Position numbers and translations under genes: made by a program. From sequence record OR062524: a stretch of DNA of 64,000 nucleotides. One strand, 5' to 3'. Below, piece by piece: positions 3,115 through 25,312 of this stretch. Below the pieces are notes generated by a model that was not told where the DNA came from, did no database searches, and saw only the letters and a program-made list of their open reading frames with translations. The DNA is from Escherichia phage vB_EcoM_3A1_SA_NWU. The number at the start of each line of letters is the position of its first letter. The stretch's first letter is position 1.

Positions 3115-4199
3115 TCGAAGTCAAGCTCCTCATCATCAGAGAGATCTTTGTTAGCTGAATTCAATTTGTAGTTAGTTAACTGAATCTCTTGGGCTGCTGA
3201 CTGAATCAAATCAGGATTCAACCATTTTTCCATCCAAGCTAAAGGGCTATGTTTAGGTGCTTTAAACTTGGCTTTCATTTTCAATCGACGATAAATAGGA
3301 GCAGCATTGAAATAAACCCACTGTTTAGACAATTCGGCGTTAAGACCTACAATAAAACGACCTTCACTAAACAGGTAGTCACACCACTGTTCCTCTTGTT
3401 CAACAACAGTGTCGAGGATCAAAGTCAACTCTTCAATATTGTCTTCGTAAATTTTACGCCAAATTGGGTCATGCATCAATGCATCAATTACAGCATAATC
3501 CATCTTAACATGCAAGATTTCATCTAGCATAATTTTCTGGATCAGTTTACAAGCCCCAACAAACAGTTGTTGTTCTGCCATAGCAAAAGTAGCAGAGAAG
3601 GAAGATATAAACTGAATACCTTCTAATCCAATCAGGGCTACCATCCCTTTAAGAATCAGCAGTCGAAGTTCATCGTTAGCTTCAATCAATCCTAGAGCAT
3701 ACTTATGACCAGCTTCTTCCAACTGACCCATGATATCAGCAATGATACCCATACGATTGAAAATTTTATCATTAATCATAATCTGATTGATGACTTCGAT
3801 TGGATCTGGAGTACATTGACGGATTATTTCAGAATACGTTAACGCATGGAGAACTTCCATTTCACTCTGCTTCATCATCATAGCACAGGCTTCATTGTTA
3901 CTCAAGAATGGAGAGAACAAAGTGATGATTGATTTTGCAAGAGAATCATTTTCCCATTGGAACGATAAGTTTTTAATCATAACATCATAATTGTTTTTAG
4001 AACAAGCTACGAAATCTTTACGTGTCTGATCCAGATTGACTTCATTCTCATCCCAATCTTGTGCTTTTTGAAGTTTGTAGAGTTTGTGCATCTCTGGATA
4101 AGTTACGTTAACAGAATCAAAAATCCCTAATTGTTCCCCTAAAAATACTGGATATTTTCCTGTTTTGTAAACTTCATTGTGTAAATTAATTGCTGCCAT
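3111..4199 (-). CDS. nrdB: ribonucleotide reductase class Ia small (beta) subunit
   Basis: 362 aa; ferritin-like R2 length and acidic C-terminal tail (DDEELDFE); immediately follows nrdA. Confidence 0.85.
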   Translation of the reverse strand: MAAINLHNEVYKTGKYPVFLGEQLGIFDSVNVTYPEMHKLYKLQKAQDWDENEVNLDQTRKDFVACSKNNYDVMIKNLSFQWENDSLAKSIITLFSPFLSNNEACAMMMKQSEMEVLHALTYSEIIRQCTPDPIEVINQIMINDKIFNRMGIIADIMGQLEEAGHKYALGLIEANDELRLLILKGMVALIGLEGIQFISSFSATFAMAEQQLFVGACKLIQKIMLDEILHVKMDYAVIDALMHDPIWRKIYEDNIEELTLILDTVVEQEEQWCDYLFSEGRFIVGLNAELSKQWVYFNAAPIYRRLKMKAKFKAPKHSPLAWMEKWLNPDLIQSAAQEIQLTNYKLNSANKDLSDDEELDFE

Positions 4200-23160: not shown

Positions 23161-23235
23161 GGCCCTGTAGCTCAATGGGAGAGCTGTCGGCTCATAACCG
23201 ATAGGTAGCTGGATCGAAACCAGCCAGGGCCACCA
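23161..23235 (+). tRNA. tRNA-Met (anticodon CAU), CCA encoded
   Basis: Manual fold: acceptor GGCCCTG/CAGGGCC, anticodon loop CTCATAA, T-arm GCTGG-ATCGAAA-CCAGC. Confidence 0.8.
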
Positions 23236-23237
23236 AA

Positions 23238-23312
23238 GTCTTTATGGTGTAATGGATAGCACAGGAGTCTTCTAAACTCTTAGTCAAGGTTCGATTCCTT
23301 GTAAAGACACCA
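23238..23312 (+). tRNA. tRNA-Arg (anticodon UCU), CCA encoded
   Basis: Manual fold: acceptor GTCTTTA/TAAAGAC, anticodon loop CTTCTAA, T-loop TTCGATT. Confidence 0.75.
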
Positions 23313-23508
23313 GAACATTTTAACATGAATTAGCTCAAGTGATTTGAACCCACTACTGATCATGGTGGCAGAGAATGAGGCAAGTATGTCAGACATTATA
23401 AACAAAGGCCACGGTTATATTAGAAGACATAAATGCTCGAAGAGCACCGTTCGTGGAGAACGGGGGTTGGTGGAGTCACCATTCATGGTAAAATGTTTTA
23501 AAAAACTA

Positions 23509-23538
23509 TTGACAACAAACATTATTTTATGTTAGATT
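23509..23538 (+). promoter_or_regulatory. possible internal promoter TTGACA-N18-TAGATT before tRNA-Ser
   Basis: ttgacaacaaacattattttatgttagatt, about 10 nt before tRNA start. Confidence 0.35.
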
Positions 23539-23546
23539 ATAAGTAT

Positions 23547-23637
23547 GGAAGGGCAAATCGATGTGGCGACGAAAACGGTCTTGAAAACCGCCGAGCTTGA
23601 AAGAGCCTTGGGAGTTCGACTCTCCCTCCTTCCGCCA
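23547..23637 (+). tRNA. tRNA-Ser (anticodon UGA), long variable arm, CCA encoded
   Basis: Manual fold: acceptor GGAAGGG/TCCTTCC, anticodon loop CTTGAAA, T-arm GGGAG-TTCGACT-CTCCC. Confidence 0.75.
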
Positions 23638-23642
23638 GATTA

Positions 23643-23728
23643 GGTAGATTGGTGAAATGGTAGCCACGACAGTTTGCTAAACTGTAGTCGGAAACGGCGT
23701 GTAGGTTCGAGTCCTACATCTACCGCCA
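23643..23728 (+). tRNA. tRNA-Ser (anticodon GCU), long variable arm, CCA encoded
   Basis: Manual fold: acceptor GGTAGAT/ATCTACC, anticodon loop TTGCTAA, variable-arm hairpin with GAAA loop. Confidence 0.75.
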
Positions 23729-23858
23729 AGTTCTTTTTAATGTAGCTTACTTTAGCAGAGTAAATCTTCGGCAAGTGGCGGTAACCACTTTACCGATACC
23801 TCATAGTTAGTGGTGTGAACACTGGCTATTTTAAAAAGAATTTAAATATTAGTATTTA

Positions 23859-23946
23859 GGTGAGTTAATTCCGTAGGGGTAGCGGGGCAGACTGTAAATC
23901 TGTTATCATTGCGATTCGGGTGGTTCGACTCCATCACTCACCACCA
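23859..23946 (+). tRNA. tRNA-Tyr (anticodon GUA), class II, atypical 5-nt connector before D-stem
   Basis: Acceptor GGTGAGT/ACTCACC 7/7, anticodon loop CTGTAAA, T-loop TTCGACT, CCA encoded. Confidence 0.6.
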
Positions 23947-23952
23947 AATTAA

Positions 23953-24038
23953 GATGAGTTGGCTGAATGGTTTAAGCGGCGGACTGTTAATCCGTGTTCG
24001 AAAGAACAATATAGGTTCGAATCCTATACTCATCGCCA
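23953..24038 (+). tRNA. class II tRNA (long variable arm) with anticodon GUU (nominally Asn); identity uncertain
   Basis: Acceptor GATGAGT/ACTCATC, 3-bp D-stem, anticodon loop CTGTTAA, variable hairpin GTTC-GAAA-GAAC, T-arm ATAGG-TTCGAAT-CCTAT, CCA encoded. Confidence 0.55.
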
Positions 24039-24045
24039 GAATTAT

Positions 24046-24122
24046 GGACTTGTAGAGTTAAGGTAAACCCCCAGTCGCCAATAGGCTTCTGGAATTGCAG
24101 GTATCGAATCCTGCCGAGTCCC
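24046..24122 (+). ncRNA. tRNA-like element with intact acceptor pairing but no canonical anticodon arm
   Basis: GGACTTG...CGAGTCC acceptor pairing and T-arm-like GCAGG-tatcgaat-CCTGC (8-nt loop); no 5-bp/7-nt anticodon hairpin found by hand. Confidence 0.3.
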
Positions 24123-24128
24123 AGCATT

Positions 24129-24203
24129 GCTCCTATAGTATAATGGCTATTACAACGGTTTTGTAATCCGTGGATCTCTGTTCGATTCAGTGTGGGAGCA
24201 CCA
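24129..24203 (+). tRNA. tRNA-Thr (anticodon UGU), CCA encoded
   Basis: Acceptor GCTCCTA/TGGGAGC, anticodon loop TTTGTAA, T-loop TTCGATT. Confidence 0.65.
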
Positions 24204-24519
24204 ACACAACATTAAGAGCACTGTGATTGATCGTCGTATCCTGTGCACAAGGTCTGCTCGAAAGACAGTGTTCTTAGTATTGTGTTGATCACAAAAAGAG
24301 TCACCCGAAACTTGACCGGAGTAGGGTTGGATGGGGCAAAATGAGAAGCGGCTCTCCCATCGACAGCAACGAAGAATAATATTTGACTTTGGTTTTGTAT
24401 TATTTTAAGTTAGCTTACCGAACGTAGGGCTAGTCACCCAACGGGATACTCGTCACTGTCCCAATCAATAAAAGTCTTGACAACAAATAGTAAAATGTAG
24501 TATAGTAAATATATATGGC
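24204..24519 (+). ncRNA. 315-nt non-coding spacer with long-range pairing; candidate stable RNA
   Basis: aagagcactgtg ... acagtgttctt pairing, repeated agtcaccc(g/a)aac motif; no ORF or tRNA fold. Confidence 0.25.
24477..24506 (+). promoter_or_regulatory. sigma70-like promoter TTGACA-N18-TATAGT before tRNA-Gly
   Basis: cttgacaacaaatagtaaaatgtagtatagt. Confidence 0.4.
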
Positions 24520-24593
24520 GTTCTTGGTGTAGCGGTAGCATTCCGTCCTTCCAAGTCGGCGGCACGAGTTCGATCCTCGTAGAACGCTCCAAA
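24520..24593 (+). tRNA. tRNA-Gly (anticodon UCC), CCA encoded
   Basis: Acceptor GCGTTCT/AGAACGC, anticodon loop CTTCCAA, T-arm ACGAG-TTCGATC-CTCGT, discriminator U. Confidence 0.75.
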
Positions 24594-24689
24594 TTATTTA
24601 ATAAAGGGTTGCCAGAAAACTTTCTCTTTTACTCATGGTTTTCTCCTTCTCTCACACTTCTTCTGGTTGCCCTTCATTAAATGATTTAT

Positions 24690-24765
24690 TGGTTTGTAGT
24701 GTAGTCCGGTAGCACACGACACTTTGACTGTCGTAGGTTTGGTTCAAATCCAGACAGACCAGCCA
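24690..24765 (+). tRNA. tRNA-Gln (anticodon UUG), U1-A72, CCA encoded
   Basis: Acceptor TGGTTTG/CAGACCA, anticodon stem CGACA/TGTCG with loop CTTTGAC. Confidence 0.75.
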
Positions 24766-24858
24766 TATAACAAAGGTGAGTCACTACCTTAAGTGTGAAG
24801 TTAAAAACGAGGAGCCGCCGAACACTTTCTTTTGCGGTGTACCTTTAGAATGTTATCA

Positions 24859-24935
24859 CGGGACGTAGCACAGCTTGGTAGTGCGCTCGCTTTGGGAGCG
24901 AGAGGTCGAGTGTTCGAATCACTCCGTCCCGACCA
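24859..24935 (+). tRNA. tRNA-Pro (anticodon UGG), CCA encoded
   Basis: Acceptor CGGGACG/CGTCCCG, anticodon stem CTCGC/GCGAG loop TTTGGGA. Confidence 0.8.
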
Positions 24936-24941
24936 ATTAAA

Positions 24942-25015
24942 TGTTTCGTAGTTCAATGGTAGAACCCACGACTGATAATCGTGAGACACAAGTTCGATTC
25001 TTGTCGAAACAACCA
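24942..25015 (+). tRNA. tRNA-Ile (anticodon GAU), CCA encoded
   Basis: Acceptor TGTTTCG/CGAAACA, anticodon stem CACGA/TCGTG loop CTGATAA. Confidence 0.75.
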
Positions 25016-25017
25016 GT

Positions 25018-25077
25018 TTCCCGTTAGACTTACAGGATAAGAGTTCCACAGCTTATTGTGATGCTGGTTCGAATCCA
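25018..25077 (+). ncRNA. tRNA-like element (good acceptor and T-arm, degenerate anticodon arm)
   Basis: TTCCCGT...ACGGGAT pairing, T-arm GCTGG-TTCGAAT-CCAGC, no canonical anticodon hairpin. Confidence 0.3.
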
Positions 25078-25094
25078 GCACGGGATACATAATA

Positions 25095-25173
25095 GCGGGA
25101 TAGAGGAGTCTGGTCGTCCTCGCCAGTTTCATATGCTGGAGATCATCGGTTCAAATCCGATTCCCGCCTCCAA
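25095..25173 (+). tRNA. tRNA with CAU anticodon (second Met-type or lysidine-Ile), A1/C72 mismatch, CCA encoded
   Basis: Acceptor AGCGGGA/TCCCGCC, anticodon stem CCAGT/GCTGG loop TTCATAT. Confidence 0.65.
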
Positions 25174-25287: not shown

Positions 25288-25312
25288 AGCCTCCTTATTG
25301 GAGGCTTTTTGC
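25288..25312 (+). terminator. intrinsic terminator closing the tRNA cluster
   Basis: agcctccttattggaggcttttt. Confidence 0.7.

What the first reader, a model, noticed from the sequence alone, without database searches (positions are those of the whole stretch)
23953..24038. Class II (long variable arm) tRNA carrying a GUU anticodon
By manual folding this tRNA has a 3-bp D-stem and a 13-nt variable hairpin, as in Leu/Ser/Tyr tRNAs, but the only 5-bp/7-nt anticodon hairpin gives GUU, nominally an Asn anticodon. The combination is not standard and may indicate recoding, a Tyr-derived variant, or a fold I have misread.
Basis: seen in the sequence. Interest (0 to 1): 0.55.

Follow-up and report, generated by a model that had tools for sequence, protein, structure and literature searches.

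The report
Phage asparagine tRNA with extra arm
This phage gene encodes an asparagine tRNA built on the long-armed body plan that textbooks reserve for serine, leucine and tyrosine tRNAs; it belongs to a large, almost virus-only family that includes the phage T5 tRNA-Asn used experimentally to help defeat the bacterial PARIS immune system.

Summary
Window 23953-24038 (+) is an 86-nt tRNA with anticodon GUU, a 3-bp D stem, and a 15-nt variable region forming a 4-bp GAAA-capped hairpin. ARAGORN, Rfam, ViennaRNA and tRNAscan-SE (in a public record) agree.

It is not a one-off. The window is a phAPEC8-like E. coli phage. Equivalent long tRNA(GUU) genes occur in T5-like, T4-like, rV5-like, jumbo and Pseudomonas phages and in 108 IMG/VR contigs (110 distinct sequences). 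They are nearly absent from cells: 26 stretches in 185,579 species genomes, 16 confirmed long by ARAGORN, 10 of them in tRNA arrays.

The arm is maintained by compensatory changes. Discriminator G73 is invariant, the anticodon arm equals E. coli asnT, and family-wide the acceptor stem matches ordinary tRNA-Asn, not Ser/Tyr/Leu.

Most likely it is charged by host AsnRS and reads AAC/AAU. Recoding is unlikely. T5's only tRNA-Asn is a member, and with T5 tRNA-Lys and tRNA-Thr it rescues cells from the PARIS nuclease AriB (PMC12409363).

That the arm itself provides nuclease evasion is my inference, not shown. No paper I could search mentions this architecture. Serylation of this gene's product is not excluded.

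The parts
23953..24038 (+). Whole tRNA-Asn(GUU) gene, 86 nt, class II architecture, CCA encoded
   Evidence: ARAGORN; Rfam tRNA 62.1 bits; own model R1 103.7 bits; MFE cloverleaf
23953..23959 (+). Acceptor stem 5' strand GAUGAGU (G1-C72, A2-U71, U3-A70); pairs with 24028-24034
   Evidence: (7/7 pairs covary across lineages)
23962..23977 (+). D arm GCUGAAUGGUUUAAGC: 3-bp stem (G10-C25, C11-G24, U12-A23), G13.A22 mismatch, A15
   Evidence: 13.22 mismatch in 70% of long forms vs 11% of short Asn; A15-U48 Levitt pair
23978..23995 (+). G26 plus anticodon arm GCGGA-CUGUUAA-UCCGU; 18/18 identical to E. coli asnT; contains the AriB site sequence U36AAUC|C41 and the CNG/CNG motif recognised by P2-OLD
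23986..23988 (+). Anticodon GTT (GUU), reads AAC/AAU
23996..24010 (+). Variable region, 15 nt: hairpin GUUC-GAAA-GAAC (23996-24007) plus unpaired AAU (24008-24010; U48 = 24010)
   Evidence: (4/4 pairs with compensatory changes)
24011..24027 (+). T arm AUAGG-UUCGAAU-CCUAU
24028..24038 (+). Acceptor 3' strand ACUCAUC, discriminator G73 (24035), encoded CCA (24036-24038)
   Evidence: (G73 in 103/103 long forms)
23161..25172 (+). The tRNA gene cluster holding it: Met, Arg(UCU), Ser(UGA)-like, Ser(GCU), Tyr, Asn, Thr(UGU), Gly, Gln, Pro, Ile, Met/Ile2. Tyr ends 6 nt before Asn starts, so co-transcription is likely
23509..23538 (+). Promoter-like site (TTGACA-18-TAGATT, TG-extended) upstream of the Ser-Ser-Tyr-Asn-Thr run
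   Evidence: weak evidence, since the number of promoter-like sites is not above shuffles
25288..25306 (+). Terminator-like hairpin plus T-run after the last tRNA of the cluster
   Evidence: a terminator is annotated after the last tRNA of the cluster in the ASO2A record

Best explanation
It is a functional phage-encoded elongator tRNA-Asn. Host AsnRS charges it through the GUU anticodon and G73, and it reads AAC/AAU as asparagine. It is built on a class II body: a 3-bp D stem with G13.A22, and a short 4-bp GNRA-capped variable hairpin. It belongs to a large, old, almost virus-restricted family of long-armed tRNA-Asn genes.

Its job is to supply or back up Asn decoding during infection of an AT-rich phage (about 57 Asn codons per 1000), including when host tRNA-Asn is attacked by tRNA-cleaving immune nucleases such as PARIS AriB or P2 OLD.

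Shown here: the structure; selection on the arm (compensatory changes); Asn-type identity elements; the viral distribution; and, from the literature, that the T5 family member contributes to rescue from AriB.

Inferred: charging of this particular tRNA by AsnRS; and (about 35% confidence) that the extra arm and remodelled core exist to change the tRNA's shape so that enzymes reading the tRNA body no longer bind it, while the anticodon arm needed for AsnRS, Q34 and t6A37 stays untouched.
For: Structure and register.

Selection on the arm: 4/4 variable-arm pairs covary in 12 lineages. In 103 unique members the mean best stem is 3.64 bp vs 2.80 +/- 0.08 in shuffles (maximum 3.02 over 200 shuffles), with 57 distinct stems and about 60% GNRA loops. 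The Levitt pair covaries: G15-C48 in 27, A15-U48 in 26, Fisher p about 1e-7.

Asn identity: GUU plus G73 suffice to transplant Asn identity in E. coli (review). G73 is present in 103/103 and loop CUGUUAA in 103/103. G26 plus the anticodon arm is 18/18 identical to asnT. Family acceptor pairs are U1-A72 71%, C2-G71 47%, C3-G70 45%, against 77/58/52% in short phage Asn. Ser has G-C 92%, G-C 91%, A-U 85%; Tyr and Leu have A73. A body-only classifier votes Asn for 55/103.

Anti-Ser features: the arm stem is 4 bp or shorter in 91/103, vs 32/142 Ser. C2-G71, present in 47%, is an antideterminant for E. coli SerRS.

Function: T5 has one tRNA-Asn, the 83-nt long one. Co-expressing T5 tRNA-Lys, Thr and Asn almost fully rescues growth after PARIS activation, and AriB needs contacts outside the anticodon arm. 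P2-OLD also cleaves host tRNA-Asn.

Distribution: 12 phage lineages; 108 IMG/VR contigs vs 26 stretches in 185,579 species genomes, of which 16 are confirmed long by ARAGORN and 10 of those lie in clusters of 7 or more tRNAs; none in 5,426 E. coli genomes.

Non-redundancy: 16 loci carry long and short Asn side by side. T5 tRNA-Thr(UGU), another AriB-target isoacceptor, also has an ectopic arm.
Against: No aminoacylation or decoding data exist for this tRNA or, directly, for any family member. The T5 rescue could partly reflect competition with or inhibition of AriB rather than decoding, as the authors themselves note.

This gene's acceptor stem (G1-C72, A2-U71, U3-A70) is atypical for Asn, and the body-only classifier votes Ser for it, though for uninformative reasons. 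Its 4-bp arm is the same size as that of the phage's own tRNA-Ser(GCU), so SerRS access is not excluded.

AsnRS is a class II synthetase and approaches from the variable-loop side (textbook knowledge), so an arm could hinder it; this was not testable here.

For the arm-as-camouflage idea: this tRNA keeps the exact AriB and OLD recognition sequences. Many phages use class I Asn tRNAs with the same arm. The published explanation for the T5 tRNAs is substitutions near the cleavage site.

The census pattern required the Asn-type anticodon arm, so the invariance of that arm in the family is partly by construction. Related sequences inflate the statistics.
Confidence: 0.7

Rival explanations
1. Same functional tRNA-Asn, but the long arm has no role of its own. 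It would be a tolerated relic of descent from (or recombination with) a class II tRNA, and the gene is kept only to raise Asn-tRNA supply for an AT-rich, Asn-rich phage.
For: Asn codons are about 57 per 1000 in a 39% GC window. D-arm types are heterogeneous (Ser-, Leu-, Tyr-, Asn-like), as expected from modular shuffling within tRNA clusters. Class I Asn tRNAs with the same anticodon arm are also common in phages (at least 120 contigs).
Against: The hairpin is preserved by compensatory changes across very distant phage groups, with 57 distinct stems. It is coupled to a class II type D arm and a covarying 15-48 pair. It coexists with a class I Asn in 16 loci. It is almost absent from cells. A neutral insertion would be expected to decay or vary in length much more.
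Confidence: 0.25
2. SerRS-charged or dual-identity tRNA. The long arm plus G73 makes it a substrate of seryl-tRNA synthetase, so it inserts Ser at AAC/AAU (deliberate mistranslation or recoding), as in nematode nev-tRNAs or tRNA-Ser anticodon variants.
For: [quoted passage not shown] This gene has G1-C72, C11-G24 and G9, and a 4-bp arm the same size as the phage's own tRNA-Ser(GCU). It is the best non-self hit of that Ser gene (0.69 identity; R1 63.6 bits). The body-only classifier votes Ser. From memory (Himeno et al. 1990, not readable here): lengthening the tRNA-Tyr arm by one base pair plus A73G gave serine acceptance.
Against: G2-C71, 'absolutely conserved' in bacterial tRNA-Ser, is A-U here and C-G (an anti-SerRS element) in 47% of the family. 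Arm geometry (0-1 unpaired nt 5', about 3 unpaired 3', 3-4 bp) is Tyr-like, not Ser-like (1/1, 5-7 bp). The anticodon arm is conserved to identity with host tRNA-Asn, which SerRS does not read but AsnRS does. Asn is 5.7% of codons, so serylation would damage every late protein. The T5 member helps restore growth. The Ser vote comes from G1-C72, G9 and a pair that is rare in both training sets.
Confidence: 0.1
3. A decoy rather than a decoder: a tRNA-shaped RNA that titrates or inhibits host tRNA nucleases or other tRNA-binding defence proteins, with little role in translation.
For: The authors of the PARIS study raise inhibition by competition as a possibility for overexpressed viral tRNAs. 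This tRNA presents the exact host cleavage-site sequence on a different body.
Against: All features needed for translation are conserved: perfect acceptor stem, G73, encoded CCA, canonical T loop, U33, A37, and a 7-nt loop. A pure decoy would not need them all.
Confidence: 0.07
4. Mis-annotation: a pseudogene, or a different anticodon register.
For: None found.
Against: Four independent methods give the same register. The gene is 97-100% conserved in 66 phage records, with covariation in all five helices.
Confidence: 0.01

Closest known systems
Canonical bacterial tRNA-Asn (E. coli asnT/U/V/W)
   Same: Anticodon GUU, loop CUGUUAA, G26 plus the whole anticodon arm (18/18 nt), and G73. Family-wide the same acceptor-stem preferences (U1-A72, C2-G71, C3-G70).
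   Different: 15-nt variable region with a hairpin instead of 5 nt. 3-bp D stem with G13.A22 and G9, instead of a 4-bp stem with A9. This gene has G1-C72/A2-U71 instead of U1-A72/C2-G71.
Phage T5 tRNA-Asn(GUU), a component of the tRNA trio that neutralises PARIS (Belukhina et al. 2025, PMC12409363)
   Same: Same family. 87% identity over positions 24-77. Related D arm, GAAA-capped variable hairpin (3 bp in T5, 4 bp here), G73, and T-loop UUCGAAU.
   Different: T5 has U28-A42 instead of C28-G42 next to the AriB cut site, and C16 instead of U16. The window tRNA keeps the host sequence there. The published work does not mention the arm.
Bacterial class II tRNA-Tyr
   Same: Short 3-4 bp variable stem with 0-1 unpaired nt on the 5' side and about 3 on the 3' side. 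G34-U35 anticodon start (queuosine family). Often the immediate upstream neighbour.
   Different: A73 and GUA in Tyr vs G73 and GUU here. No elevated sequence identity to the window's own Tyr gene (0.65 vs a background of up to 0.68).
Bacterial tRNA-Ser
   Same: Long arm, G73, G9, G13.A22. In this phage the same overall length (86 nt) and arm size as tRNA-Ser(GCU).
   Different: Lacks G2-C71. The family arm is shorter and differently anchored. The anticodon arm is Asn-specific.
Nematode nev-tRNAs (PMC3333845) and bacterial/phage allo-tRNAs (PMC5389517)
   Same: A class II or otherwise irregular body carrying an anticodon that does not belong to Ser or Leu.
   Different: Those keep the identity of the body (Leu, Ser/Ala) and so would mistranslate. 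Here the identity elements follow the anticodon (Asn) and only the shape is borrowed. The acceptor/T configuration is canonical 7/5, not 8/4 or 9/3.

Membership tests
tRNA (Rfam RF00005) | Cloverleaf scoring above the curated gathering threshold | tested here: met
   62.1 bits vs gathering score 29; ARAGORN call
Class II (long variable arm) tRNA | Variable region of 10 nt or more forming a base-paired arm | tested here: met
   15 nt with a 4-bp stem and GAAA loop; 4/4 pairs covary
Class II (long variable arm) tRNA | Class II type core: 3-bp D stem with unpaired 13.22, and a purine15-pyrimidine48 Levitt pair | tested here: met
   G13.A22; A15-U48, and the pair covaries in the family
Bacterial tRNA-Asn (AsnRS substrate) | Anticodon G34 U35 U36 | tested here: met
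   identity rule from the review
Bacterial tRNA-Asn (AsnRS substrate) | Discriminator G73 | tested here: met
   G at 24035; 103/103 in the family
Bacterial tRNA-Asn (AsnRS substrate) | Class I body (4-5 nt variable loop), as in all described tRNA-Asn | tested here: not met
   15-nt variable region; reviews list no class II Asn
Bacterial tRNA-Asn (AsnRS substrate) | Actual aminoacylation with asparagine | not testable with these tools
   Only indirect evidence: the T5 member contributes to growth rescue when host tRNA-Asn is depleted
Bacterial tRNA-Ser (SerRS substrate) | G1-C72 and G2-C71 ('absolutely conserved') | tested here: not met
   G1-C72 is present but 2-71 is A-U; the family has C-G in 47%
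Bacterial tRNA-Ser (SerRS substrate) | Extra arm of Ser-type size and orientation | tested here: inconclusive
   4 bp with 0 unpaired 5' and 3 unpaired 3'. Host Ser arms are 18-21 nt and phage Ser stems mostly 5-7 bp. But the phage's own Ser(GCU) arm is also 4 bp and 15 nt
Bacterial tRNA-Tyr | A73 and U35/A36 (anticodon GUA) | tested here: not met
   G73 and GUU; A73 in 73/74 phage Tyr tRNAs
Bacterial tRNA-Leu | A73 | tested here: not met
Anti-defence phage tRNA (nuclease-resistant replacement of a targeted host tRNA) | The host isoacceptor is a target of a defence nuclease | tested here: met
   From the literature: AriB and P2-OLD cleave E. coli tRNA-Asn(GUU)
Anti-defence phage tRNA (nuclease-resistant replacement of a targeted host tRNA) | Substitutions at or near the cleavage site, as described for T5 tRNAs | tested here: not met
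   The anticodon arm is identical to the host's, including U36AAUC|C41 and the CNG motifs
Anti-defence phage tRNA (nuclease-resistant replacement of a targeted host tRNA) | Resistance to the nuclease and rescue of infection | not testable with these tools
   Shown only for the T5 trio as a set
nev-tRNA / allo-tRNA type mistranslators | Identity elements of the body disagree with the anticodon | tested here: not met
   Discriminator, anticodon arm and (family-wide) acceptor stem agree with Asn; 7/5 acceptor/T configuration

The most novel reading that the evidence does not exclude
Grafting a short class II variable arm (with the matching D-arm core) onto normally class I tRNAs is a general viral counter-defence device. 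It would change the tRNA's silhouette so that immune nucleases reading the tRNA body (PARIS AriB, OLD-family Toprim tRNases and others) no longer dock, while leaving the anticodon arm, and hence synthetase identity and modifications, intact. Supporting hints: long arms in phage clusters also occur on Thr(UGU) (including T5), Lys(UUU) and Ile, and Asn/Thr/Lys are exactly AriB's targets. AriB needs contacts distal to the anticodon arm. Long and short Asn genes coexist.
Probability: 0.3. Interest if true: 0.85.

Novelty: new variant of a known kind. Interest (0 to 1): 0.62.

Why it matters
Textbooks and current reviews restrict long-variable-arm tRNAs to Ser, Leu, bacterial Tyr and Sec. Here there are at least 110 distinct sequences of a fifth kind, tRNA-Asn, hidden in plain sight in hundreds of annotated phage genomes, including the model phage T5.

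It matters for three reasons:

1. tRNA identity. It is a natural test of whether a class IIb synthetase (AsnRS) tolerates an extra arm, and of how a tRNA with G73 plus an arm avoids SerRS.

2. Phage-host conflict. The host tRNA-Asn is a target of PARIS and P2 OLD, and the T5 member is part of the tRNA set that neutralises PARIS. This gives a directly testable hypothesis: shape, not only anticodon-stem substitutions, confers escape.

3. Annotation. Isotype models trained on cellular tRNAs will score these poorly or inconsistently. The long form could also serve as a marker of viral or tRNA-array origin in metagenomes.

Tried and rejected
1. Recent duplication from the neighbouring Tyr or Ser(GCU) gene. 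Global identities of 0.65 and 0.69 are no higher than unrelated tRNA pairs in the cluster (up to 0.68). Rejected as unsupported.

2. A body-only naive-Bayes isotype classifier (leave-one-out accuracy 72%). It is informative for the family (55/103 Asn) but not for this gene. Its 'Ser' vote comes from G1-C72, G9 and the rare A2-U71, and with the acceptor stem alone Asp and Ser tie.

3. Nearest-neighbour typing of D arms. The results are heterogeneous (Ser, Cys, Tyr, Leu, Asn...), so no single origin can be inferred.

4. A denominator for the viral census. A rough proxy from GenBank phages is 233 vs 45 near-full-length hits for one long and one short query.

5. Literature. Eight full-text searches found no description of a class II tRNA-Asn. 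Himeno 1990 could not be read. The 1980s T5 tRNA sequencing papers are not in the library, so prior notice there cannot be excluded.

6. E. coli genomes. There is no homologue in 5,426 complete genomes, so it is not a host or prophage gene.

7. One 'long' cellular hit (Azoarcus, L150) is an 11-nt tandem duplication rather than a hairpin. The scan found 26 cellular stretches. ARAGORN confirmed a long tRNA(GUU) in 16 of them; 10 of these lie in clusters of 7 or more tRNAs and 6 are singletons.

Full report
**What is there.** Window 23953-24038 (+) reads GATGAGT TG GCTGAATGGTTTAAGC G GCGGA CTGTTAA TCCGT GTTCGAAAGAACAAT ATAGG TTCGAAT CCTAT ACTCATC G CCA. ARAGORN calls an 86-nt tRNA-Asn(gtt) at exactly these coordinates. 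Rfam's tRNA model scores it 62.1 bits (gathering 29), with the same anticodon register and a 12-nt insertion in the variable region. ViennaRNA's unconstrained minimum-free-energy structure is a five-arm cloverleaf with a 3-bp D stem and a 4-bp variable hairpin capped by GAAA. A sister-phage GenBank record annotates it 'tRNA-Asn-GTT; detected by tRNAscan-SE'. Neither of its stated refutation criteria (a different register, or a class I fold) is met.

**Where it comes from.** The tRNA cluster is 100% identical to Escherichia phages AV125 and ESCO13 and 95-99% identical to phAPEC8 and relatives (Phapecoctavirus, Stephanstirmvirinae). The gene sits in a + strand cluster of at least 12 tRNAs (23161-25172), 6 nt downstream of tRNA-Tyr. 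A promoter-like site lies at 23509-23538 and a terminator-like hairpin at 25288-25306. No homologue exists in 5,426 complete E. coli genomes.

**It is a family, not an oddity.** A sensitive BLAST against GenBank phages found 757 records, 233 of them covering at least 80% of the query, all annotated tRNA-Asn where annotated. ARAGORN confirmed 83-87-nt tRNA(GUU) genes in Phapecocta-, Justusliebig-, Mydo-, Henuna-, Epseptima-, Tequinta- (T5), Novosib-, Winkler-, Jiaoda-, Marfa- and Alcyoneusvirus and in a Pseudomonas jumbo phage. A Kuttervirus has an ordinary 75-nt one.

A pattern requiring the Asn anticodon arm plus a long spacer before the T arm hit 108 IMG/VR contigs from many environments. 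It hit only 26 stretches in one genome each of 185,579 prokaryotic species. ARAGORN confirmed a long tRNA(GUU) in 16 of those 26. Ten lie inside clusters of 7-36 tRNAs (for example 32-36 tRNAs in 8 kb in Micromonospora/Verrucosispora) and six are singletons, one of which (Azoarcus) is an 11-nt duplication rather than a hairpin.

Lengths of all 279 tRNA(GUU) genes in the fetched loci are bimodal: 72-79 vs 82-94 nt. The 140 long ones make 110 distinct sequences.

**The arm is under selection.** In a 12-lineage alignment, 99.3% of cells pair (shuffles 76.6%; slid registers 33-48%). All four variable-arm pairs show changes on both sides, for example GUUC/GAAC, GAAC/GUUC, GAGC/GCUC, AUCC/GGAU, GUCA/UGAC. 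In 103 well-parsed unique members, the best hairpin in the variable region averages 3.64 bp vs 2.80 +/- 0.08 in shuffles (maximum 3.02 over 200 shuffles). There are 57 distinct stems, and GAAA caps 42 of them (GNRA about 60).

The arm comes with a class II core. A 13.22 mismatch (mostly G.A) occurs in 70% of long forms vs 11% of short phage Asn tRNAs. The 15-48 Levitt pair covaries (27 G-C, 26 A-U; Fisher p about 1e-7; the window has A15-U48). Relatedness among sequences inflates such statistics, but the number of independent stem types is large.

[quoted passage not shown] The window tRNA has both. Its G26 plus anticodon arm is 18/18 identical to E. coli asnT.

Family-wide, G73 is invariant (103/103). 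Acceptor pairs (U1-A72 71%, C2-G71 47%, C3-G70 45%) mirror short phage tRNA-Asn (77/58/52%). They differ sharply from Ser (G1-C72 92%, G2-C71 91%, A3-U70 85%) and from Tyr and Leu (A73). C2-G71 is a known antideterminant for E. coli SerRS, and G2-C71 is 'absolutely conserved' in bacterial tRNA-Ser.

The arm is short (4 bp or less in 91/103, vs 32/142 Ser). It is anchored like tRNA-Tyr arms (0-1 unpaired nt on the 5' side, about 3 on the 3' side) rather than Ser arms (1/1). A classifier that sees only the acceptor stem, N8/9/26, T arm and N73 votes Asn for 55/103.

For the window gene itself the acceptor stem (G1-C72, A2-U71, U3-A70) is uninformative. The classifier's 'Ser' vote rests on G1-C72, G9 and a pair that is rare in both training sets, and with the acceptor stem alone Asp and Ser tie. 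Its arm is also the same size as that of the phage's own tRNA-Ser(GCU). I therefore keep a serylation or dual-identity rival at about 0.1. I regard recoding as unlikely, because Asn codons are 5.7% of the phage's codons and the AsnRS-specific anticodon arm is what is conserved.

**Functional evidence from the literature.** Belukhina et al. [quoted passage not shown] They also show that co-expressing the T5 versions of these three tRNAs almost completely rescues growth and restores infection by several phages. T5 encodes a single tRNA-Asn, the 83-nt long-armed one, so a family member has been tested in vivo.

The paper attributes resistance to substitutions near the cut site. But it also shows, with chimeras, that AriB needs contacts outside the anticodon arm, such as the D loop. 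It never mentions a variable or extra arm. P2 OLD also cleaves host tRNA-Asn via CNG motifs in the anticodon stem. The window tRNA keeps both the AriB site and the CNG motifs, whereas T5 and Stubb have U28-A42. If the window tRNA escapes these nucleases, it must be through its body.

**A broader pattern.** T5's tRNA-Thr(UGU), another AriB-target isoacceptor, is 87 nt with a GGA-GUAA-UCC variable hairpin. In the fetched phage loci, ectopic hairpins also occur on Thr(UGU) (8), Lys(UUU) (3), Trp, Cys, Glu, Ile(GAU) and others. There is also a distinctive tRNA-Ile(UAU) group with a conserved CAGAUUA/CAGAUAA arm loop. Sixteen loci carry a long and a short tRNA-Asn in the same cluster, often adjacent, which argues that the two forms are not redundant. 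These observations motivate, but do not prove, the idea that an added arm is a shape-changing counter-defence device.

**Comparison with known kinds.** The tRNA works like, and by its identity elements is, a tRNA-Asn. It fails the (implicit) class I criterion of every described tRNA-Asn. It is class II by structure but fails the defining identity features of Ser (G2-C71), Tyr (A73, GUA) and Leu (A73). It differs from nev-tRNAs and allo-tRNAs, whose identity follows the body rather than the anticodon. Reviews list only Ser, Leu, bacterial Tyr and Sec as class II. Eight full-text searches found no description of a class II tRNA-Asn, although older T5 sequencing papers are outside the searchable library.

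**Verdict.** The feature is real. It is already annotated as tRNA-Asn, but its architecture, family-wide conservation and virus-restricted distribution appear undescribed. It is a new variant of a known kind. The core explanation (a functional Asn decoder from a viral long-arm family) has confidence about 0.7. The arm-as-camouflage mechanism has about 0.3-0.35.

Noticed in passing
L272:30133-30219 (phage T5_ev212, minus strand of the record): T5 tRNA-Thr(UGU) is 87 nt with a 15-nt variable region (AGGAGUAAUCCCGUU; GGA-GUAA-UCC hairpin). It is a second normally class I isoacceptor with an ectopic arm, and also one of the three T5 tRNAs that neutralise PARIS.
   Followed up: partly
e.g. L050:7444-7538, L169:2693 (91 nt), L237:9324 (94 nt), L253:1032 (92 nt), L134:5454 (93 nt): Seventeen distinct phage tRNA-Ile(UAU) genes of 91-97 nt carry a 21-27-nt variable arm whose loop is conserved (CAGAUUA / CAGAUAA). 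In the least biased subset, 7 of 29 Ile tRNAs are long. The function is unknown.
   Followed up: no
many loci, listed (e.g. Lys L112:9623, L127:1693, L134:4198; Trp L051:4387; Cys L264:6199): GNRA-capped ectopic variable hairpins also occur at low frequency on phage tRNA-Lys(UUU), Trp, Cys, Glu, Gly, Pro, Gln, Met, His, Phe and Val.
   Followed up: partly
window 24046-24122 (+): An uncalled tRNA-like element lies between tRNA-Asn and tRNA-Thr. It has acceptor stem GGACUUG/CGAGUCC and T arm GCAGG-UAUCGAAU-CCUGC, but an aberrant anticodon region and no CCA. MFE is -27.6 kcal/mol (z = -2.9). There is no Rfam tRNA hit at E<1. It may be a decayed tRNA.
   Followed up: partly
window 25018-25090 (+): A weak tRNA-like match to my model R1 (22.6 bits, E about 0.001) lies between tRNA-Ile and the last tRNA-Met. 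ARAGORN and Rfam do not call it.
   Followed up: no
window 23547-23636 (+) and 23859-23946 (+): ARAGORN misses two class II tRNAs. The first is a Ser(UGA)-like gene that only hits Rfam tRNA-Sec below threshold (35.7 vs 47 bits) and has an odd D region; tRNAscan calls it Ser-TGA in the ASO2A record. The second is tRNA-Tyr(GUA) (Rfam 39 bits).
   Followed up: partly
window 24129-24203 (+): The phage tRNA-Thr(UGU) has a U31.U39 mismatch (an effectively 4-bp anticodon stem) and C41 where E. coli tRNA-Thr(UGU) has A41. This is the same A41-to-C change that impairs AriB cleavage of tRNA-Lys.
   Followed up: no
L128, L129, L132, L147 (Verrucosispora/Micromonospora): Actinobacterial genomes (L128 and L132 are complete chromosomes) carry 23-36 tRNA genes within 8 kb (tRNA arrays) that include a 90-nt long-armed tRNA-Asn (89 nt in L147).
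   Followed up: no
16 loci, e.g. L047:3841-3912 (short) and 3921-4009 (long); L077, L064, L125: A class I and a long-armed tRNA-Asn(GUU) sit side by side in the same viral tRNA cluster.
   Followed up: partly
L004:1327-1739 (phage VEcB, Justusliebigvirus): The gene order is Lys(UUU)-Tyr(GUA)-Asn(GUU)-Thr(UGU). That places the three PARIS target isoacceptors and the Retron-Eco7/Septu target next to each other. The window has Tyr-Asn-(tRNA-like)-Thr but no Lys.
   Followed up: no
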